Origin: a virus
Lineage: Duplodnaviria > Heunggongvirae > Uroviricota > Caudoviricetes
DNA length: 31,925 nucleotides
IMG/VR virus record: IMGVR_UViG_2917881069_000003
Span: 1 to 31,925 of that record
Reading direction: 5' to 3' (one strand)
The position numbers and the translations under genes were made by a program. Shown in pieces: positions 1 to 31,925 of this stretch (positions are counted from its first letter, which is position 1; the number at the start of each line of letters is the position of its first letter). The notes under the pieces were generated by a model. That model saw nothing but the letters and a program-made list of their open reading frames with translations, searched no databases and was not told the DNA's origin.

Positions 1-231
1 CATGGCCACCACCATCCAGATAACCATGTCCCCCGGTAAACGACGGCGGCGAACGGTCGCATGCGCAGAAAGCGTCAGACAGTGCTGTATCCACTCGACG
101 GGAAGGTGCTCTGCAAACAGTTGTGCAGAGGGCGGTGGCATAAGCGGATGGTCACTGAAATCGAGCAGATCATTTAGAAGTGGCATAAGAAAACGGCTCC
201 CTGTTGTGGAAGCCGTTATAGTGCCGCAGTT

Positions 232-257
232 TAAGGATCGGTCAACCGATCCTTAAC
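232..257. repeat. Perfect palindrome: 11-bp stem, 4-nt loop (ttaaggatcgg tcaa ccgatccttaa)
   Basis: Read directly from the sequence, just outside the ogr end of the prophage. No U-tract on either side, so not a classical intrinsic terminator. Confidence 0.5.
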
Positions 258-297
258 TGATCGGCATTACCTCGACTGAGGGGCTTTCTGTTTGTAA

Positions 298-7942: not shown

Positions 7943-9232
7943 ATGAAAACCGATATCACTGCCATGTCTGAAAATATAGTGGAATTCTTTGAACAAACAA
8001 CACTGCATGATTACATCAAAAAAACATGGCTATACAATGAAAATTGCTTCGTTATTGATTTCGAATACAAAGGCGTGAAATTTGCATTAGATTTCACAGC
8101 CAGCCAACCAGGTGTAAACGTGGATTTTGTTCTACGAAATAATTACTCTTTTTATACTATAAAAGGCAATACTAAAAAAGAAAACATTTCATCTTCTGCT
8201 ATTTTAACAGCAGCCCTGCAAGCTTCTCTTCTAAAAATCACAACGGTAATTAATGAAATTAATTCTATTTATCCCTTTGATGTCTCAGTTATTATTCCGG
8301 TTCACAACCGAGAAACCCTTATTCTCGAATGCATTAAATCTTTAAACAATCAGACTATAGATAAAAATTGTTTTGAAGTTATTTTCATTGATGACTGTTC
8401 CACTGACAGGAGCATTGCCGCCATTGAATATAACATTTCGAGAGAAATAAATTATCGTATTATCCGTAGAGAAGTTGGTTCAGGAAATGCATCAGCGCCG
8501 CGAAATGAGGGAATAAAATCCGCAAAAGGTCGTTATGTGTTTTTCTTAGATTCTGATGATTCCATTCACTCTGACTTACTGTCCGATGGCATTCAGATGG
8601 CTTATAAAAATAATAGTGACATTGTATATTTCAAGCAGGTTTCCTCTACAGGAAGAGGGGTTCCCGTACGCCCATTTAAGGCAGACACAAATAAAGCGGA
8701 CATTATAAAAAACCATCTTTTCAGATCATTAAAAATCTTCAAGCTCTTTAAAAAAGAGTTACTAATCAATAATAACATCTTATTTAACCCATCAATTTCA
8801 GTCTATGAGGACATGCTTTTTTCTTGCCAAGCTCTAACTGTAGCTAATACGATATCTATACTGGCAAGAAAAGGCTACTACTCTCTGAATCGCCATGAAG
8901 AACCACATCTATCTAAAACATCTTTCTCCATTAAACAAAGAGTCTTAGTATTACAAACAGGTTTGATTTATATCTTATCAAGTAATAAAAATGAAGCAGA
9001 AATAGTAAAAATGTTTAATGCGTGGTTGGTTATTTGCGTTGAACACCTGGCATCCATATTATCCAAAAAAAGTTTAACAACTAATGAGAAATCTCATATT
9101 TTCAACTTGATACATAAATCATTCTTACCATATACAGGGTTTGTAAATGAGCCCCAAATATATCCCGCACAAAGAGAGCTGGTCAGTTGTTTAATCTGTG
9201 GAGATTATTCTTCTTTTTGCGAAAAAATATAA
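7943..9232 (+). CDS. Family-2 (GT-A fold) glycosyltransferase-like protein with unrecognised N- and C-terminal domains (429 aa)
   Basis: ATG with AGAGG RBS 7 nt upstream. GT2 motifs seen in translation: VSVIIPVHN, FIDDCSTD, SAPRNEG, FFLDSDD (DXD at nt 8549-8560), YED. Visibly AT-rich relative to the phage backbone and on the opposite strand to both flanking late operons. Confidence 0.8.
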   Translation: MKTDITAMSENIVEFFEQTTLHDYIKKTWLYNENCFVIDFEYKGVKFALDFTASQPGVNVDFVLRNNYSFYTIKGNTKKENISSSAILTAALQASLLKITTVINEINSIYPFDVSVIIPVHNRETLILECIKSLNNQTIDKNCFEVIFIDDCSTDRSIAAIEYNISREINYRIIRREVGSGNASAPRNEGIKSAKGRYVFFLDSDDSIHSDLLSDGIQMAYKNNSDIVYFKQVSSTGRGVPVRPFKADTNKADIIKNHLFRSLKIFKLFKKELLINNNILFNPSISVYEDMLFSCQALTVANTISILARKGYYSLNRHEEPHLSKTSFSIKQRVLVLQTGLIYILSSNKNEAEIVKMFNAWLVICVEHLASILSKKSLTTNEKSHIFNLIHKSFLPYTGFVNEPQIYPAQRELVSCLICGDYSSFCEKI

Positions 9233-9454: not shown

Positions 9455-9892
9455 TTATTCTGAAGTCTCCAACTTCATCAAACGACGATTTAAGTCAACA
9501 AAACGTTCCATTAACAAATCCACCTGGCTGACAACAGCACGTAGACACCACCAGAGAAGCTCCTCTTTCCGGAAGCGATAACGGCTTCCAGCTTCGGTTG
9601 CAGGGCGAACAAGAACCCTTTCCGCCTGTCGGGTAAGCACACGGGTTGTCCCGCTCAACAGCTCCCCTTCATCCGAATAAATCGCTGGCTGAACCGGAAT
9701 ATCTTCATACTCTTCCGGTATATCTTCGTACTGTGCCTCCTCCGCTTCCCACGAATCCAGACAAAATGCGCTGTATTTCCGCCAGTCCAGACCGTGTTTC
9801 TCCATCACGGCTATCGCGGCCTGGACTGTCGGCCCGGCGTGCAGACGCGCGTCCTCGCCCTCCTCCTCAATTCTCTGTAACCAGCGCCACAC
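9455..9892 (-). CDS. Hypothetical protein (up to 145 aa) directly downstream of tail fibre H; possible tail fibre assembly/chaperone of a non-P2-G type
   Basis: Occupies the position of P2 G but shows no resemblance to P2 gpG as I recall it; acidic, EE/EY-rich. The ORF-track start is a GTG with a poor RBS; the first ATG is 29 codons in (9805), so the start is uncertain. Confidence 0.45.
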   Translation of the reverse strand: MWRWLQRIEEEGEDARLHAGPTVQAAIAVMEKHGLDWRKYSAFCLDSWEAEEAQYEDIPEEYEDIPVQPAIYSDEGELLSGTTRVLTRQAERVLVRPATEAGSRYRFRKEELLWWCLRAVVSQVDLLMERFVDLNRRLMKLETSE

Positions 9893-9960
9893 CCCCGGAA
9901 GCCGTGCTATTTCTGCAAATGCCGCGTTTTCGGCTGCCGTCGCATCGCGCGGTGTATCCT

Positions 9961-12312
9961 TTACGTCGCATCCGACACAACGGTCGGCGAGTTGCAGAGA
10001 TACACGCTCCGGAACGCTTTGTTGGGCGCACCCAGGTCGCTGGTATTGTTAACCGATGGCCGGAATGCGCCGTTAATATCTGTATCCATCTGCATGAATG
10101 CAGTGCCGTCACTACGGGCTGCAATTACATAAGCGTCAGCAGAATCGTCATAAATACCCAGATTCCCGGCTGTTGATACCTGGAAAGCTCCCGCCTTCAG
10201 CGTGGTGCTGATGGCCATGCGCTTCTGGGTTTCGTCATCCGATTTAATATTCACGCCCTGCAGGTATGCCACATTCCAGCGATTTGGCGATGACCCCAGA
10301 TTCATTGCCTTGTCCTGGTCGGGATGAAATGACGGCGAGACCGGACTCAATAATACAGACCAGGTCTCACTGCCATCGGTACAATAAAGCCTTGTGCGTC
10401 CCGCCGACTGAGTATCGTTCATTGAGTAAAGGTTAATCCCGCCACCGCTCAACAAATCCACGTCAGCGCGTATTTCCAGACAATCGTGCACGGCGTTCAG
10501 GCGGTGTTTCCACTGAACGTAGCGGCCTGTGTATTCTCCGGTTCGGAACGCATCCCCGAACAAACGAAAAACAGCAGCAGAAGTGTCTGTATCCGGAGCC
10601 TCCTTTCTGACCTCAAATAACGGGCGATGCGAGCGCAGATTCTGCTCATAGGCTGCCACCTGGAAGTCTTCATTGGGTGACAGGGCTATATTTACAGCAT
10701 TAGGACTCAGAAAAAGGCTGGCATGGCTGTCAGGAAACGCCACGCCGGAGTCCACCAGATAGCCTGTGCCGTCGTAAGCCTCCACGGAAACCACAGCTTT
10801 GCTGCGTTTTGTCGCCACGCCACACGTATAAGACTTCGTGGCATCATATTTCGTTGCAGCCGCCGTTCCATATGCTGTAGGCGTCCAGTAAGATGGATTC
10901 ACCGGAGAACGGCCAGAAAAATTTGTTGCACGTGCTGCAAAGTATGCCCCCTCAAAAGAAACCACATCGGCTGTCTGACACCAGAAATCCATATCGAGCA
11001 GATACAGTTTTCCGTTATGGAGAGCCAGCCCTTCGGCTTCCTGCAAAACGGGATACCCCAGCTCTGCATTCCCCAGCATTTTCTGGCGACCATACCTGGC
11101 ACGAACGCCATCCACATTGAACTGTCTGACAACTTCGCCCGTTGACAGGTTATATACAACAATGCGGTGAGTCAGAAATACGCCTGTATAACCGTAATAA
11201 GCAAACAGATAATGACCATCGCTGGCCATCCCCTGAAATGCCTGCGACACCATTGGCTGGGTGGACAGATAAATCCGGTGTTTAAACGTCAGAGAGGCGC
11301 GATCGAAAACATAAACTGTGCGGCGATCATCCCTGTTGTAATGAAGATGGACGGCCTCATCACCTGACTGAACAATTAACAGGCTTCCGTCTGCCGACAA
11401 TGCCACCGTTATAATTTCATCCCCGGTAAAAAAGTCAGAGGTGAAAATCTCCGTACGGGTGACATCTGTCAGACTGGTGTCAGCCCCATTCCAGTTGATG
11501 ATATTCACACCCTTGCCGTCAGCGGTCGGGGTATACAGCATCACGCGACCGTCTTCACATACAGCCCCGATACTCTGGTGACCAATATCAGCGAAAACGG
11601 GAGAAAACGAAATGACCGTCGGGTTTTCGTTTTCTCCGTCAGGGTTAAATGTCGTTTCAACAATCCTTACGCCACCCGATACAGGCTGATGCAGAAACAT
11701 TCGGGTTCCCTGCGGCGTATCACAGATACAGAACCCCTGGCTCATCTTATCCGCGCCGTCAAAAATCCCGGCGTAGTCAATATCGTGGACAACTTTATGC
11801 TGAAGAACCACATCATCAATGACAGTACGATGAAGACTGGATATGGCTTTGTCGACGTAATCCTGCGTCGCCATCACTGTGCTGGCATCAATACTCAGCT
11901 CAACGGACGCCACGTTACTGACAATAATAACCATGCGGCAGGTCTGCGCACGTCCGGAACCTTCAGCCAGTTCAGGCTTATAGCTTTCCGCCATGTTGGC
12001 GACCGCAATCAGTGTTCCGGCATCGTCATACAGACCAAGCTCACGCATCCAGAAGCCGCCCACATCTGGCGGTACAACCAGTTCAGCCACAATATAGTTT
12101 TTATTCTTATTATCCACGCTGACTTTATTCAGGGCATGACGCCAGACCTCATGCACCAGCTTCGTCTGACCGGCATCCGGCACCGGCAATTTGCCATTAC
12201 CGTCACCCACGGCCATTGCAGACAGGTTTACTTTTTTCCCGCCGGGGACAGTGGCGGCTGCCAGCTTTGCGGCTCCGGCAGTAGTGATAACGGTTTTAAA
12301 TTTCGTGCTCAT
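9961..12312 (-). CDS. H: Tail fibre protein H (783 aa); conserved P2-like N-terminal part (about 160 aa) with a divergent distal region
   Basis: N-terminus MSTKFKTVITTAGAAKLAAAT... matches P2 gpH; the remainder is unrelated to the P2 gpH distal region as I recall it, and the protein is longer than P2's 669 aa. Confidence 0.85.
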   Translation of the reverse strand: MSTKFKTVITTAGAAKLAAATVPGGKKVNLSAMAVGDGNGKLPVPDAGQTKLVHEVWRHALNKVSVDNKNKNYIVAELVVPPDVGGFWMRELGLYDDAGTLIAVANMAESYKPELAEGSGRAQTCRMVIIVSNVASVELSIDASTVMATQDYVDKAISSLHRTVIDDVVLQHKVVHDIDYAGIFDGADKMSQGFCICDTPQGTRMFLHQPVSGGVRIVETTFNPDGENENPTVISFSPVFADIGHQSIGAVCEDGRVMLYTPTADGKGVNIINWNGADTSLTDVTRTEIFTSDFFTGDEIITVALSADGSLLIVQSGDEAVHLHYNRDDRRTVYVFDRASLTFKHRIYLSTQPMVSQAFQGMASDGHYLFAYYGYTGVFLTHRIVVYNLSTGEVVRQFNVDGVRARYGRQKMLGNAELGYPVLQEAEGLALHNGKLYLLDMDFWCQTADVVSFEGAYFAARATNFSGRSPVNPSYWTPTAYGTAAATKYDATKSYTCGVATKRSKAVVSVEAYDGTGYLVDSGVAFPDSHASLFLSPNAVNIALSPNEDFQVAAYEQNLRSHRPLFEVRKEAPDTDTSAAVFRLFGDAFRTGEYTGRYVQWKHRLNAVHDCLEIRADVDLLSGGGINLYSMNDTQSAGRTRLYCTDGSETWSVLLSPVSPSFHPDQDKAMNLGSSPNRWNVAYLQGVNIKSDDETQKRMAISTTLKAGAFQVSTAGNLGIYDDSADAYVIAARSDGTAFMQMDTDINGAFRPSVNNTSDLGAPNKAFRSVYLCNSPTVVSDAT

Positions 12313-12322
12313 TGTTTCTCAC

Positions 12323-12853
12323 TTATCCGGGATAAACAGTAATAACATCACCATCACAGACCACACCGCCTGTATACAGACAGCCGGGAATGTCCTGGAT
12401 AATGTTCAGACCGATAAGGTGGCGACTTGCGGGTTTGGCATCGGCAATAAGCCGTTCCATTTCCAGATACATCTCCTCCGTGATGCCGCTTTCCAGCACA
12501 CCGATATCAAGGCGAAAGGTTCCGGGCGGGTCGTTTGTCTCCCACCATTCCTTTACGTTAATGAGATAGCCGAGCGGCTCCACCACGCGTCGGATTGCGC
12601 CTATAGTGCCCTTATGACAGTGAATGAAATAGGCATCGCGGATAACGGCGCGTTTTGTCGCTTCCGGCCATTTTTCATCCCACCTGTCGACCGAAAACGC
12701 CCACGCCAGCCACGGCAGCAGATTTGCCGGGCAGGTGTCCGGGTTCCACAGTTCACGAATACTGACCGGCGTTTTTTCAATTTCCGCACAGGCTTTTGCG
12801 GCGGCGACTTCAAGCGGTGATGAGCCGGTCGGCAGCAGTCGCGAATCACTCAT
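12323..12853 (-). CDS. I: Baseplate protein I (176 aa)
   Basis: Length and position (J-I-H) as in P2. Confidence 0.88.
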   Translation of the reverse strand: MSDSRLLPTGSSPLEVAAAKACAEIEKTPVSIRELWNPDTCPANLLPWLAWAFSVDRWDEKWPEATKRAVIRDAYFIHCHKGTIGAIRRVVEPLGYLINVKEWWETNDPPGTFRLDIGVLESGITEEMYLEMERLIADAKPASRHLIGLNIIQDIPGCLYTGGVVCDGDVITVYPG

Positions 12854-13755
12854 CCGAGCCTCCGGTCACGACGCTGTATTCGGTGCAGAAAGACGCCTGC
12901 GTACTGTTGAGCACAATGTCGGCCAGTGGTGCGGCCAGCTCGACACGCTGCACGCCTTCCACATGCAAAGCGGCATAAATGGCAGACAGACGGATGTCAC
13001 GCCCCAGCCGGTGCTGTGCCGTGATGTACGCTTCCAGTTTTTTCACGGCAGCAGCGCGGATGGGTTCGCTTTCGGGACCAGGGTAAAGGTAAAGCGTGGC
13101 GTTTATCTGGTATTCAACAATGGCGGCAGACTGCACGGTCACGCGGTCGGCCACCGGCCTGACGTCCTCACCATTAAGGGCGTTGCGCACCACCGCCAGC
13201 AGGTCTTCGGATGCCACACCGTTATTTTCACGTGACAGCACGGAGATGGTGACACAGGCAGGAGACGGACTGGTGACAGAGATATCCGCGACACGCCCGT
13301 CGGCACTGCGACCATGATACTGATAGGCTCCCACCGACCCGGCGACGCTTAAACCTTCAAACGCCTGCTGAATACGCAGACGATAATCGGTGTCAGACTC
13401 CATCACTGCCGGTGTCGGCGGGGATGGTCGAATCATCTGCCGGGGTGATAGTCAGGCGCGTGGTGTTGTAATTGGCACCAATCACATCAAGGTCATTACC
13501 GGCGGCACAGGCCAGCATCACCGCCCGTGCGGCCTCATTCACACGCTGACGCCAGATAAGCTCACGATAAGCATTTTCCTCCAGCAGTTTGACGAGAGGC
13601 TCAGATTCCAGCGTCAGGGTACGGGCGACCGCCTCCTGCTGGTCTTCCGGGTAAAGGGAAATCAGTGTCGCCTTGCGTTCGGCAAGAATGGTTTCAAAGT
13701 CCAGCTCCTCGACCACATCCGGTGCGGGTAGCTGGTTCAGGTCGATAATCGGCAT
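12846..13755 (-). pseudogene. J: Baseplate wedge protein J, interrupted by a 1-nt insertion in a G/C run
   Basis: Two overlapping ORFs in different frames (13393-13755 and 12846-13436) together cover the P2 gpJ sequence. 910 nt is one base more than 303 codons (P2 J is 302 aa). The break is at gggg 13420-13423, where the recalled P2 sequence DDSTIPPTPAVMESD needs one fewer G/C. Confidence 0.7.
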
Positions 13756-24370: not shown

Positions 24371-25237
24371 ATGAAAAAAGTATATGAACTAACCAGTGAA
24401 GAAGCACTGTCATATTTTCTTCGCCATGATTCCTACACAACCTTAGAATTGCCAGCATATATTAATTTCGCTACGTTATTAAATAATATTAATTCGTCTA
24501 TCCATAACAAAAAAATTAAAATTGAACCAACCGCCAAAGACCTGATGGGTAAAAATATCAATTATGAGGTGCTTGTCAGTAAAGATGGACTATATAGCTG
24601 GCGCAGGATAACACTTATCAATCCTCTTTATTATGTCTACTTCTGTAGAAAAATCACAGCACCAACAACTTGGGAAATCATAACAGAAAAATTCAAATCT
24701 TTTGAATCAAACGACCTTTTTACATGTTCAAGCATCCCCGTCAGGAAAGACGACTCATCAAACATTGCGGCGTCAGTAATGAATTGGTGGGGAGATTTTG
24801 AACAAAAAAGCCTTGCCCTTGCTCTTGAATATGAATTCATGTTCAGCACTGATATCTCAAACTTCTACCCATCAATATATACTCATAGTTTTGAATGGGT
24901 ATTCATATCAAAAGAAGAGGCAAAGAAGAAAAAAGACAAAAACAACCCTGGCCGATTAATTGACAACCACATTCAAATGATGATGAACAATCAGACAAAT
25001 GGTATTCCACTCGGCAGCACATTGATGGATACTTTTGCTGAGCTTATCCTGGGTAAAATCGATATAGAATTAAGAAAAAAAACTAACGAATTCAAGATTA
25101 CAAACTACAAGGTTGTACGTTACCGTGATGATTACCGGATTTTTTCTAATAGTAAAGATGATTTAGACATAATATCCAAATGTTTAGTCAACGTGTTAGG
25201 TGATTTTGGTTTAGATCTAAAACTCAAAAAAAACTGA
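24371..25237 (+). CDS. Reverse transcriptase domain ORF of an Abi-P2/AbiK-like RT (288 aa as sequenced; N-terminal part of a roughly 515-codon gene)
   Basis: RT catalytic motifs in the translation: STDISNFYPSI (motif A, nt 24845-24877), GIPLGSTLMDTFAELIL (motif B, 25001-25051), VRYRDDYRIF (YxDD motif C, 25115-25144). The ORF ends at a TGA immediately after an A8 run. Confidence 0.75.
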   Translation: MKKVYELTSEEALSYFLRHDSYTTLELPAYINFATLLNNINSSIHNKKIKIEPTAKDLMGKNINYEVLVSKDGLYSWRRITLINPLYYVYFCRKITAPTTWEIITEKFKSFESNDLFTCSSIPVRKDDSSNIAASVMNWWGDFEQKSLALALEYEFMFSTDISNFYPSIYTHSFEWVFISKEEAKKKKDKNNPGRLIDNHIQMMMNNQTNGIPLGSTLMDTFAELILGKIDIELRKKTNEFKITNYKVVRYRDDYRIFSNSKDDLDIISKCLVNVLGDFGLDLKLKKN

Positions 25238-25253
25238 GCTATATGAAGATATT

Positions 25254-25919
25254 GTGCTTCACTCCTTGAAACAAGCCAAAAAAGACTATATCAAAGAAAA
25301 AAGACACAAGTCACTCCAGAAAATGCTCTACTCAATATATTTACTCTCACTAAAACATCCAAACTCGAAAACAATCGTTAGATATCTCAATGATTTTCTT
25401 AGAAAATTATTTAGAATGAATACAATTACAGATAACGGTCACCAAATAGATGCCATGCTTGGTATTATTTCAAGCATCATGGCAAAAAACCCTACAACGT
25501 ACCCAGCAGGAACTGCCATTTTCTCAAAACTCCTCAGTTTTCTTTATACTGACGACACATATCCTAAATTCAAAAAACTAGAACAACTCCATAAAAAACT
25601 TGCTAAGCAACCCAATACAGAAATGCTTGATATATGGTTTCAGCGAATTCAAGCAAAAATAAACCCAGAGTGGGAAAGCTCTTATAAGTCAGCTCTATGC
25701 GTCCGTGTAAATGATGAACTCACGAAAAAGAAAACAGTTTCTGAAAATAATTTATGGAATATTGACTGGATTCCAGGAAAAGAAACGAACAGAAACAAAG
25801 CCCAAATATTATCATTACTAACGAAAACAAAAATTGTTGATGCAGAAAAATTTGAGAAAATGGATAATGACATAATACCCGAAGAAGTTGATTTATTCTT
25901 TAAAGAATACAGCAATTAA
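25254..25919 (+). CDS. C-terminal alpha-helical domain ORF of the same RT (221 aa as sequenced, in another frame; ORF-track start is a GTG)
   Basis: The frame is open from 25221. Removing one A from the A8 run at 25226-25233 joins it to the upstream ORF as ...LDLKLKKTELYEDIVLHSLKQ... Lys/Leu-rich helical composition typical of the C-terminal domains of Abi-type RTs. Confidence 0.6.
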   Translation: MLHSLKQAKKDYIKEKRHKSLQKMLYSIYLLSLKHPNSKTIVRYLNDFLRKLFRMNTITDNGHQIDAMLGIISSIMAKNPTTYPAGTAIFSKLLSFLYTDDTYPKFKKLEQLHKKLAKQPNTEMLDIWFQRIQAKINPEWESSYKSALCVRVNDELTKKKTVSENNLWNIDWIPGKETNRNKAQILSLLTKTKIVDAEKFEKMDNDIIPEEVDLFFKEYSN

Positions 25920-30051: not shown

Positions 30052-30061
30052 CCTTTCCACC

Positions 30062-30391
30062 TTAAGCCGCACGGCCATGTCTTGATTTGCTATAACTAAT
30101 GCGATTTTTCCAGTCGTGCCATTCTGATGGAGCTTCATCGACTAGCTGTGCTGCGTACTTGTCCCACTCACGACGATTAATCCATAACTCAGCATGACCT
30201 CCCGGCTTTAATGGGTCTGCCATGTAAAAGGCAGGCAGCTTGCCTGCTTTCGCCATTTCAGCTACAGCGCGAGGCGTCTTACCGATGTAAAGAGCAAAAC
30301 CCTCTTTCGAGAGTAGATCCGACGGTGCGGCAGCGAGCTTGATGTCACATTTTTTTACTTTTTGTGAGATCAGATACTTTTTCTCCAACAT
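30062..30391 (-). CDS. cox: Cox-like excisionase/early repressor (HTH DNA-binding, 109 aa as ORF)
   Basis: First gene of the leftward early operon, divergent from C; contains ...GKTPRAVAEMAKAGKLP..., resembling the P2 Cox helix-turn-helix region. Start not verified. Confidence 0.5.
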   Translation of the reverse strand: MLEKKYLISQKVKKCDIKLAAAPSDLLSKEGFALYIGKTPRAVAEMAKAGKLPAFYMADPLKPGGHAELWINRREWDKYAAQLVDEAPSEWHDWKNRISYSKSRHGRAA

Positions 30392-30523
30392 CGTTATTCA
30401 TTTCTGATCCAATACTCATTTTGATATCCTCAACTTTGGTGCCATTCAACCAGAGCTATTTGAAGCCGCTCTGCGTTGTTCTGGCTTGTCGCATGCAACA
30501 TAAATTACGAGATACGACAATTC
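30392..30523. promoter_or_regulatory. Immunity switch region: divergent early (Pe) and repressor (Pc) promoters and operators expected here
   Basis: Intergenic region between the divergent cox-like and C genes, by analogy with the P2 Pe/Pc arrangement; individual -10/-35 and operator repeats not resolved by eye. Confidence 0.4.
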
Positions 30524-30835
30524 ATGTCAAATACACAAATCAAATCTCAAGCAGAGAAACTCGCACTTATTAGGGAGTCAGAAAGGATGACAAGGAAGCA
30601 AGTCGCTGAATTAACTGGGATTAACTACAACACCTATGCTGGATATGAGCAGGGAAAAGTAAAGATGTCTTTTGACGCAGGTATGAAATTTTTCAAGCCA
30701 GAAAGATTTCGCAAGTACCGTGACTGGTTCATGTTTGATGAAACTGATCCCGCTGGCGGACAAATAGCCCCGGCGCTCGCGCACATTGGGCAAGACTCAA
30801 CAACCTTGCACCACTCAGACCAAAAGACTGGCTGA
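30524..30835 (+). CDS. C: Immunity repressor C (103 aa), P2 C-like but divergent
   Basis: ATG at 30524 gives MSNTQIKSQAEKLALIRESERMTRKQVAELTGINYNTYAGYEQGK... with an HTH; the C-terminal ...GGQIAPALAHIGQDSTTLHHSDQKTG resembles the P2 C C-terminus as I recall it. Confidence 0.72.
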   Translation: MSNTQIKSQAEKLALIRESERMTRKQVAELTGINYNTYAGYEQGKVKMSFDAGMKFFKPERFRKYRDWFMFDETDPAGGQIAPALAHIGQDSTTLHHSDQKTG

Positions 30836-30928
30836 CGATTTATTCAGCATATGTGTGCAGTAAATGTACGAAAGAAAATTGCATTAATTTTCAAGTAGTA
30901 GAAGTAAACAGCGTCATCGGAGGGCTTT

Positions 30929-31925
30929 ATGTCTATTAAAAAGCTCGATGATGGTCGTTATGAAGTGGACGTCAGACCGCAGGGTGCAGATGGAAAACGT
31001 ATCAGGCGGAAATTTAAAACTAAGGGTGAAGCTCAAGCATTCGAACGTCATGTCCTGGTTAACTACCACAACAAAGAGTGGTTGGAGAAGCCAGCCGACC
31101 GCCGAACTCTTACAGAGTTGTTAGGCAGATGGTGGATATATCACGGAAAATCACATGAGCGTGGAGATATTGAACGGGGGGCGTTTGACGACAATAATCG
31201 CCAAATTTGCAGAAATGGGAGTGTCCAGAGCTGACCAGCTAACAAAGAAAACGATAACTGATTATCGCGTTGTAATGATGAACGATGGTCTTAAACCAGC
31301 CAGCGTAAATCGGCATCTGGCAATAATGAGCGGGATGTTCACCAAGTTAATTGACGCCGGTGAATACCACTCTCACAACCCGTTCCGTGAGGTTAAGCGG
31401 TTACGTGAAGCTGTTACGGAAATGGCTTTTTTGTCCAGTGAAGAGATTACGCGGCTGTTATCCATGCTTGATGGTGATGAATTAAATGCAACTCTGGTCT
31501 GCCTTTCTACTGGTGGACGCTGGAGTGAAGTGTCAAATTTAAAAGCTGAACACATCATTAACCAGATGGTTACGTTTATGAAAACTAAAAACGGAAAGCG
31601 CAGGACAATTCCCGTGTCGCAGGACCTGATTAAACGGATCAAGACCAAAAATTCAGGCAGGCTTTTTAATGCCAGTTACTACAAAGTGCGCAACGCTCTC
31701 AGGGAAGTAAAACCCGATTTACCTGACGGACAGGCAGTGCATGTTTTGAGGCATACATTTGCCACACATTTTATAATGAATGGAGGTAACATAATCACAT
31801 TGCAGCGCATCCTGGGTCATTCTAACATTCAGCAAACTATGACCTACGCACACTTTGCACCGGATTTCTTACAAGATGCAGTGACTCTTAACCCGGTGTC
31901 AGGAATGTCCATAATGCGTCCATAA
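30929..31925 (+). pseudogene. int: Tyrosine integrase (P2 Int family), interrupted by a 1-nt indel in a G6 run
   Basis: Two ORFs in different frames (30929-31234 and 31155-31925). N-terminus MSIKKLDDGRYEVDVRPQG...; C-terminal catalytic region with HVLRHTFATH...LGHSNIQQTMTYAHF (R, H-x-x-R, Y). Removing one G from gggggg at 31176-31181 restores a single reading frame of about 331 aa. Confidence 0.75.

What the first reader, a model, noticed from the sequence alone, without database searches (positions are those of the whole stretch)
31155..31234. Integrase interrupted by a one-base indel in a G6 run
int is split into 30929-31234 and 31155-31925 in different frames. Deleting one G from gggggg (31176-31181) yields a continuous integrase of about 331 aa whose catalytic C-terminal residues (R...HxxR...Y) are intact. 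If real, the prophage is locked in place, unable to excise or reintegrate.
Basis: partly seen in the sequence, partly recalled or inferred. Interest (0 to 1): 0.45.

Follow-up and report, generated by a model that had tools for sequence, protein, structure and literature searches.

The report
Integrase frameshift: likely Ion Torrent artefact
The one-base break in this prophage's integrase gene is really in the deposited sequence, but it is most probably an Ion Torrent homopolymer miscall rather than a mutation that locks the prophage in place.

Summary
A G6 run at 31176-31181 splits a P2-family integrase into ORFs 30929-31234 and 31155-31925. Removing one G gives a 331-aa protein identical to WP_000023391.1, with all catalytic residues present.

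The biological reading is probably wrong. The window is contig PDIG01000018.1 (positions 3-31927) of Escherichia cryptic clade II strain E2661. That draft was made from 40x single-end Ion Torrent reads, a platform prone to homopolymer-length errors.

The same 40.4 kb of contig carries five more frameshifting one-base homopolymer changes:
- baseplate gene J (C3 to C4)
- tail fibre gene H (TT to T)
- the AbiP2 reverse transcriptase (A3 to A4)
- host genes ycaD (T5 to T6) and dmsA (A6 to A7), both intact in two reference genomes of the same clade

No G6 copy was found in 5,426 complete E. coli genomes or 50,697 phage records. The repaired gene shows no other decay.

Best estimate: about 85% sequencing artefact, about 11% real recent mutation. 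A few short-read assemblies of unknown platform also show G6 (and one G4) on other allele backgrounds, so a real slippage hotspot is not fully excluded. Interest is low.

The parts
30929..31925 (+). P2-family tyrosine integrase gene (int), interrupted as deposited. With one G removed it encodes 331 aa identical to WP_000023391.1.
31176..31181 (+). G6 homopolymer. All listed relatives have G5. The extra base shifts the frame at codon 84/85, inside the core-binding (Int_N) domain.
30929..31234 (+). N-terminal ORF as deposited (101 aa): 84 native residues (arm-binding region plus the start of the core-binding domain) followed by 17 out-of-frame residues.
31155..31925 (+). C-terminal ORF as deposited (256 aa): 8 out-of-frame residues (MSVEILNG) followed by native G84-P331. 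It holds most of Int_N and the whole catalytic domain. Only a weak GGA lies upstream of its ATG.
31518..31847 (+). Span holding the catalytic residue codons: R197 (31518-31520), a lysine-rich beta-hairpin stretch around K220 (31587-31589), H271 (31740-31742), R274 (31749-31751), H297 (31818-31820) and the Y306 nucleophile (31845-31847).
30524..30835 (+). C-type immunity repressor (HTH) just upstream of int and in the same direction, as in P2.
30062..30391 (-). Cox-family excisionase/regulator, divergent from C-int.
13420..13423 (-). Second homopolymer frameshift in the window. Baseplate gene J has C4 on the coding strand where relatives have C3, which splits the 302-aa J into 13393-13755 and 12846-13436.
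9961..9964 (-). Third frameshift. Tail-fibre gene H reads ACG TAA where relatives read ACG TTA AAG (TT to T). This truncates a 952-aa fibre at residue 783.
25219..25222 (+). Fourth frameshift. The window has A4 where the intact 515-aa reverse transcriptase has A3. This splits the AbiP2-type RT into 24371-25237 and 25254-25919.
1..268 (-). End of an IS4-family element, with the transposase N-terminus running off the window. This is where the draft contig starts, so the ogr-side attachment site is not visible.

Best explanation
The gene is an ordinary P2-family (Peduovirus) prophage integrase sitting next to the attachment site at the 5' end of pflA. The extra G that breaks it is most likely a base-calling error. 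Ion Torrent measures homopolymer length from signal amplitude, and a G5 run was probably over-called as G6. At 40x single-end coverage the error would have survived into the MIRA/SPAdes consensus. In the living strain the integrase is then expected to be intact, with G5, and the prophage no more locked than its several hundred relatives.

Shown: the indel, its position, the identity of the repaired protein, the source assembly and platform, and the contig-wide pattern of the same lesion type. Inferred: that this particular G6 is one of those errors.
For: 1. Source. The window is 100% identical over 17,555 nt to NCBI GCA_004745185.1 contig PDIG01000018.1. PDIG00000000 is Escherichia clade II strain E2661, sequenced with Ion Torrent single-end 35-400 nt reads at 40x and assembled with MIRA and SPAdes (PMC6639607).
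2. Platform. Ion Torrent homopolymer indels are a known cause of false frameshifts in assemblies. In one Illumina-versus-Ion-Torrent comparison the mean affected run length was 5.5 (PMC12046094).
3. Contig-wide pattern. Six frameshifting one-base homopolymer-length changes occur in 40.4 kb, and five of them are +1 insertions:
- int, G5 to G6
- J, C3 to C4; no 100% match to a 101-nt probe, and every listed row spans 100 bases, among 1,386 records with a match
- H, TT to T; likewise among 87 records
- AbiP2 RT, A3 to A4
- host ycaD, T5 to T6, and host dmsA, A6 to A7
4. Host control. ycaD and dmsA are intact, with T5 and A6, in references of the same clade: E. whittamii Sa2BVA5 and Escherichia sp. 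E1V33.
5. Rarity. A 50-nt probe that can only seed on G6 finds nothing in 5,426 complete E. coli genomes or 50,697 phage records. All listed relatives align 1126 query bases to 1125.
6. No secondary decay. The repaired Int is identical to WP_000023391.1, a protein seen on at least 1000 contigs. It differs from the nearest copy by three synonymous bases.
Against: No reads could be inspected, so the call is circumstantial.

G6 at the same site occurs in at least three other public short-read (Logan) assemblies on different SNP backgrounds: L004 and L005 share one background and L006 has another. A G4 variant also exists as protein P0017. Real length changes at this run therefore probably happen in nature, unless those runs are also from error-prone platforms, which could not be established.

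dmsA and ycaD are not essential genes, so real pseudogenes there are not formally excluded. One of the six lesions (TT to T) is in a very short run.
Confidence: 0.85

Rival explanations
1. The G6 is a real, very recent slipped-strand insertion. Strain E2661 then makes no full-length Int. It would make only an 84-residue arm-binding fragment with a 17-residue nonsense tail, and perhaps a poorly initiated 256-aa core-binding and catalytic fragment. The prophage could then neither excise nor reintegrate.
For: The deposited consensus has G6. NCBI's annotation calls no gene there, consistent with a pseudogene flag. G6 alleles are seen in other assemblies on other backgrounds, and one of them (L004) also has a frameshift in replication gene A that is not a homopolymer-length change. 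This suggests P2-like prophages do decay by frameshifts. Loss of integrase function is a commonly described route of prophage domestication (general knowledge, not tested here).
Against: The platform and the contig-wide excess of the same lesion type, including two host genes that are intact in references of the same clade. There are no amino-acid changes in the 331 codons. There is no G6 copy in 5,426 complete genomes or 50,697 phage records. If the lesion density on this contig were real and held genome-wide, it would imply several hundred fresh frameshifts per genome.
Confidence: 0.11
2. The G5 tract is a functional slippage site. Either it is a reversible on/off switch (phase variation) for integrase, or G6 alleles are decoded to full-length Int by +1 ribosomal slippage of tRNA-Gly on CGG-GGG-G or by transcriptional slippage. 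Under this reading the interruption is regulatory and does not inactivate the gene.
For: Length variants in both directions (G6 on at least three backgrounds, G4 once) exist in public assemblies. A +1 slip on GGG-G would restore exactly the native sequence ...ERGRLTT... (reading of the sequence).
Against: The tract is only 5-6 bases, shorter than the homopolymer lengths usually associated with phase variation (general knowledge). No G6 copy was found in the complete E. coli genomes or phage records, and every listed relative is in frame with G5. P2 Int itself has a different sequence at this position, so the tract is not conserved in the family. No stimulatory element was found or looked for. 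The variants are rare, about 3 contigs against at least 1000 for one intact allele.
Confidence: 0.04

Closest known systems
WP_000023391.1, 'phage integrase' of P2-like prophages inserted at pflA in E. coli and other Enterobacteriaceae
   Same: The repaired window protein is identical over all 331 residues. The gene order is the same (cox, C, int, then pflA). The insertion site is the same.
   Different: The deposited window sequence has one extra G (G6 against G5). It differs from the nearest copy by three synonymous bases.
Bacteriophage P2 integrase (PDB 5C6K core-binding plus catalytic domains; 5DOR catalytic domain)
   Same: Strong sequence match (E = 6e-88 over residues 46-325). The R...HxxR...H...Y motifs are shared. 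The domain order is the same, as is the genomic position after the C repressor.
   Different: A different Int type: about 52-60% identical to the 337-aa Int of a related prophage, with a different attachment site (pflA start). P2 Int has no G5 tract at the homologous position.
HP1 integrase (PDB 1AIH)
   Same: The catalytic domain is homologous (E = 1.6e-45, residues 163-325).
   Different: More distant. It comes from a Haemophilus phage, and only the catalytic domain is solved.
Ion Torrent homopolymer-length consensus errors in draft bacterial genomes
   Same: A +1 or -1 change in a mononucleotide run, private to one assembly, producing an apparent frameshift. Many such lesions sit on the same contig, including in conserved host genes.
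   Different: Not demonstrated at read level for this site.

Membership tests
Tyrosine recombinase / phage integrase, P2-Int type | Catalytic domain matches Pfam PF00589 above the gathering score | tested here: met
   67.9 bits against a cut-off of 27.1, residues 167-310 of the repaired protein
Tyrosine recombinase / phage integrase, P2-Int type | Core-binding domain (PF24624 Int_N) precedes the catalytic domain | tested here: met
   79.8 bits against a cut-off of 27, residues 57-159. The frameshift falls inside it, at residue 84/85
Tyrosine recombinase / phage integrase, P2-Int type | Catalytic residues R, HxxR, H and the Y nucleophile, plus a beta-hairpin lysine | tested here: met
   R197, H271, R274, H297 and Y306 align with the same residues of P2 Int 5c6k. 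The lysine-rich stretch MKTKNGKRRT aligns with VKTKTNKPRT. Which lysine is catalytic was not determined
Tyrosine recombinase / phage integrase, P2-Int type | N-terminal arm-type DNA-binding domain | tested here: inconclusive
   Only a sub-threshold Arm-DNA-bind_4 match (17.2 bits against 22.3) at residues 21-48
Tyrosine recombinase / phage integrase, P2-Int type | Single uninterrupted reading frame | tested here: not met
   Two overlapping ORFs in the deposited sequence
Tyrosine recombinase / phage integrase, P2-Int type | Recombination activity between attP and attB | not testable with these tools
   Needs an excision or integration assay
Ion Torrent homopolymer-length artefact | Assembly derived from a flow-based platform without polishing by another platform | tested here: met
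   PDIG00000000 is strain E2661: Ion Torrent single-end reads, 40x, MIRA and SPAdes
Ion Torrent homopolymer-length artefact | The lesion is a +1 or -1 change in a mononucleotide run | tested here: met
   G5 to G6
Ion Torrent homopolymer-length artefact | The same lesion type is spread over the assembly, including conserved host genes | tested here: met
   J, H, AbiP2, ycaD and dmsA. The two host genes are intact in references of the same clade
Ion Torrent homopolymer-length artefact | Reads or an independent platform show the shorter run | not testable with these tools
Genuine integrase pseudogene (locked prophage) | The disruption is specific to the element and not assembly-wide | tested here: not met
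   Two frameshifts in about 8.5 kb of flanking host DNA against four in 31.9 kb of window
Genuine integrase pseudogene (locked prophage) | Secondary decay (amino-acid changes, extra stops, deletions) | tested here: not met
   No amino-acid differences from the widespread intact allele
Phase-variable homopolymer (contingency) locus | A long tract and frequent length polymorphism among close relatives | tested here: not met
   The tract is 5-6 bases. No G6 copy in 5,426 complete E. coli genomes or 50,697 phage records. Only rare G4 and G6 variants in Logan contigs
Programmed ribosomal frameshift | The shifted two-frame architecture is conserved in homologues | tested here: not met
   Homologues encode Int in one frame

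The most novel reading that the evidence does not exclude
The G5 tract at codons 83-84 of this widespread integrase allele is a recurrent slippage hotspot. G6 is seen on at least three SNP backgrounds and G4 once in other assemblies. Slippage there would reversibly switch Int off and on, giving lineages in which a P2-like prophage is temporarily locked, possibly with low-level rescue by +1 ribosomal slippage on CGG-GGG-G.
Probability: 0.04. Interest if true: 0.4.

Novelty: not a real feature. Interest (0 to 1): 0.05.

Why it matters
If the indel were real it would be one more example of a prophage immobilised by loss of integrase, which is already a familiar route of prophage domestication.

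The practical lesson matters more. Apparent pseudogenes in this window and in this assembly cannot be taken at face value. At least six one-base homopolymer frameshifts occur in 40 kb, and that level of error would inflate any count of defective prophages, broken defence genes (AbiP2) or host pseudogenes drawn from Ion Torrent drafts. Claims about this prophage's competence need re-sequencing first.

Tried and rejected
- An exact 33-mer carrying G6 was searched in genome contigs, viral contigs and metagenome contigs. There were no hits.
- Exact look-ups of the 101-aa N-terminal ORF and of the 120-aa J fragment found nothing on record. Neither the NCBI annotation nor any Logan assembly calls these products, so no independent assembly of E2661 was found.
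- I tried to learn the sequencing platform of the Logan runs that carry G6 (SRR31021686, SRR25724311, ERR14114762). No paper mentions them.
- I first suspected that the one-base difference at the H/G tail-fibre junction was a fusion in the relative and not a lesion in the window. I rejected this because the 101-nt probe matched 87 E. coli records, none at 100%, and every listed row carries the extra base.
- I first read the IS4-family end at 1-268 as an insertion destroying the ogr-side attachment site. It is simply where the draft contig starts (window position 1 is contig position 3), so nothing can be said about that att site.
- I first read the reverse transcriptase at 24371-25237 as a retron. 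PADLOC identifies it as AbiP2, split by a frameshift.
- Programmed frameshifting and phase variation were considered and set aside (see the membership tests).
- Structure prediction and the large protein searches were not used, because identity to a known 331-aa protein made them unnecessary.

Full report
**Observation.** The window reads TTGAAC-GGGGGG-CGTTTG, with the G run at exactly 31176-31181. ORFs 30929-31234 (101 aa) and 31155-31925 (256 aa) overlap in different frames. A P2-type Int query aligns to the window in two pieces in two frames. Alignment with an intact chromosomal copy (E. coli ESBLEC_HM50) and a phage copy places the only indel inside the run, G6 against G5. Deleting one G gives a 331-aa protein. 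It is identical at every residue to the HM50 integrase WP_000023391.1 and differs from that gene by three synonymous bases.

**What the gene is.** The repaired protein has three regions:
- a weak arm-binding-like N-terminus
- a core-binding domain (Pfam Int_N, residues 57-159)
- a tyrosine-recombinase catalytic domain (PF00589, residues 167-310)

It matches the solved P2 integrase (5c6k, E = 6e-88) and the HP1 integrase (1aih). R197, H271-x-x-R274, H297 and Y306 are in place.

The window is a complete-looking P2-like (Peduovirus) prophage with the usual order: ogr, D, U, T, E, FII, FI, H, I, J, W, V, S, R, lysis genes, K, Y, X, L, M, N, O, P, Q, A, B, cox, C, int. The frameshift lies at codon 84/85, inside the core-binding domain. 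As deposited, neither fragment is a complete functional unit. The 101-aa product holds 84 native residues. The 256-aa ORF holds eight foreign residues followed by G84-P331, and only a weak GGA lies upstream of its ATG.

**How unusual G6 is.** The 1126-nt int region matched 440 E. coli records (405 of them over at least 80% of its length) and 20 phage records. Every listed row aligns 1126 query bases to 1125. A 101-nt probe matched 395 records, none at 100%. A 50-nt probe designed so that a 28-base seed can only form on G6 found nothing in 5,426 complete E. coli genomes or 50,697 phage records. One caveat is that BLAST's low-complexity filter is on. By my estimate of the DUST score, a six-base run should not be masked, but I did not run a positive control. 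The intact 331-aa protein is recorded on at least 1000 contigs, and the 256-aa split form on three.

**Where the window comes from.** A look-up of a rare protein from the window returned NCBI assembly GCA_004745185.1, contig PDIG01000018.1. That contig is 100% identical to the window over 17,555 nt, and window position 1 is contig position 3. No gene is called at int in that annotation. PDIG00000000 is Escherichia cryptic clade II strain E2661. It was sequenced on Ion Torrent with single-end 35-400 nt reads at 40x and assembled with MIRA and SPAdes (PMC6639607). Ion Torrent is known for homopolymer-length indels that produce frameshifts in assemblies. In one Illumina-versus-Ion-Torrent comparison the mean length of affected runs was 5.5 (PMC12046094).

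**The discriminating test.** The question was whether the lesion is specific to the prophage or typical of the assembly.

Within the window, three further genes carry one-base frameshifts that were not seen in any listed relative:

| Gene | Change | Window position | Relatives |
|---|---|---|---|
| Baseplate J | C3 to C4 | 13420-13423 | no 100% match among 1,386 records |
| Tail fibre H | TT to T | 9961-9964 | no 100% match among 87 records |
| AbiP2 reverse transcriptase | A3 to A4 | 25219-25222 | intact 515-aa protein in 11 E. coli genomes |

In about 8.5 kb of chromosomal DNA downstream on the same contig, dmsA and ycaD are both frameshifted and not called as genes. Two reference genomes of the same clade, E. 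whittamii Sa2BVA5 and Escherichia sp. E1V33, have identical flanking sequence but T5 in ycaD (E2661 has T6) and A6 in dmsA (E2661 has A7). Both genes are intact there.

In total there are six frameshifting homopolymer-length changes in 40.4 kb, about one per 6.7 kb, and five of them are +1 insertions. The stretch contains 208 runs of five or more bases. Three of these (int G5, ycaD T5, dmsA A6) are affected, roughly 1.5%. In the complete E. coli genomes no G6 copy of this run was found among roughly 400 copies. That comparison puts the odds at several to one in favour of an error.

**Best explanation.** The G6 is an Ion Torrent over-call of a G5 run that survived into the consensus (confidence about 0.85). 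On this reading the integrase in the real strain is expected to be intact, and the prophage is not locked by this lesion. The absence of any secondary decay in int fits either an error or a very recent event. It does not fit an old pseudogene.

**Rivals.**
- *A real, recent slipped-strand insertion (about 0.11).* This is kept alive because the exact 256-aa split product also occurs in Logan assemblies of three other runs, and all of them show G6. L004 and L005 share one SNP background, and L006 has another that differs from the window at 14 of 909 bases. A G4 variant (85-aa product ending ...ERGV) also exists. L004 also carries a frameshift in replication gene A that is not a simple homopolymer-length change. 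The platforms of those runs could not be established.
- *A regulatory slippage site, either phase variation or +1 recoding on CGG-GGG-G (about 0.04).* This is disfavoured for three reasons. The tract is short. No length variant was found in the complete genomes or phage records. P2 Int has different sequence at this position.

Even taken at face value, int would be only one of four broken prophage genes. The window also cannot show the ogr-side attachment site, because the contig starts inside an IS4-family element that abuts the ogr terminator. The int-side junction, just past the window, is intact. The core GTCAGTTATTGGT is shared by attP of a related phage, the empty site in E. whittamii and the E2661 junction.

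**Verdict.** The structural interpretation is correct. The biological interpretation is most likely an artefact of the sequencing platform. The gene itself is an already catalogued protein. Interest is low (0.05).

Noticed in passing
window 13420-13423 (gene J, 12846-13755, minus strand): Baseplate gene J is split by a +1 insertion (C3 to C4 on the coding strand). A 101-nt probe matched 1,386 E. coli records, none at 100%, and all listed rows are one base shorter. It is the same kind of lesion as in int.
   Followed up: yes
window 9961-9964 (tail fibre H, 9458-12312, minus strand): The tail-fibre gene is truncated at residue 783 of 952 by a one-base deletion (TT to T) that creates a TAA stop. 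A 101-nt probe matched 87 E. coli records, none at 100%, and all listed rows have the extra base.
   Followed up: yes
window 24371-25919 (+), between portal gene Q and replication gene A: An AbiP2-type defence reverse transcriptase (PADLOC DRT, E = 3e-110) is split into 288-aa and 221-aa ORFs by an A3-to-A4 insertion at 25219-25222. Eleven E. coli genomes carry an intact 515-aa version at about 91% identity. NCBI annotated the halves as two genes.
   Followed up: yes
L009 about 831-835 (dmsA) and about 5199 (ycaD); same contig, downstream of the window: Host genes dmsA (A6 to A7) and ycaD (T5 to T6) are frameshifted in E2661. Both are intact in E. whittamii Sa2BVA5 and Escherichia sp. E1V33. 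This indicates assembly-wide homopolymer errors.
   Followed up: yes
window 1-268: The end of an IS4-family element, about 97% identical to copies in E. coli, abuts the left arm of the ogr terminator. The roughly 85-nt attP arm seen in a related phage (L002 2730-2815) is absent here. The draft contig begins inside the IS, so the ogr-side attachment site cannot be seen.
   Followed up: partly
just past the window end (L008 17556-17700), L002 2700-2740, L012 3060-3090: This prophage type inserts at the first codons of pflA, with the shared core GTCAGTTATTGGT. The phage supplies a new start and a 20-residue N-terminal extension, so PflA becomes 265 aa where the empty site has the native ATG.
   Followed up: partly
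L004 10021-10026, L005, L006 160-165; protein P0017: Other public short-read (Logan) assemblies carry G6 at the same run on different SNP backgrounds, and one product implies G4. L004 also has a one-base deletion in replication gene A (GCTCCC to GCCCC). The platforms are unknown.
   Followed up: partly
window 7943-9232 (+), between tail sheath FI and tail fibre genes: A 429-aa ORF corresponds to a gene annotated 'glycosyltransferase family 2' in a related prophage, where it is 513 aa. The window copy lacks about 84 residues in frame. It has no PADLOC match.
   Followed up: no
window 30054-30900: The immunity region (cox, C and their intergenic control region) is much more divergent between relatives than int or the replication genes: about 88% DNA identity to L004, with many indels. 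This fits a different immunity type on a shared integrase.
   Followed up: no
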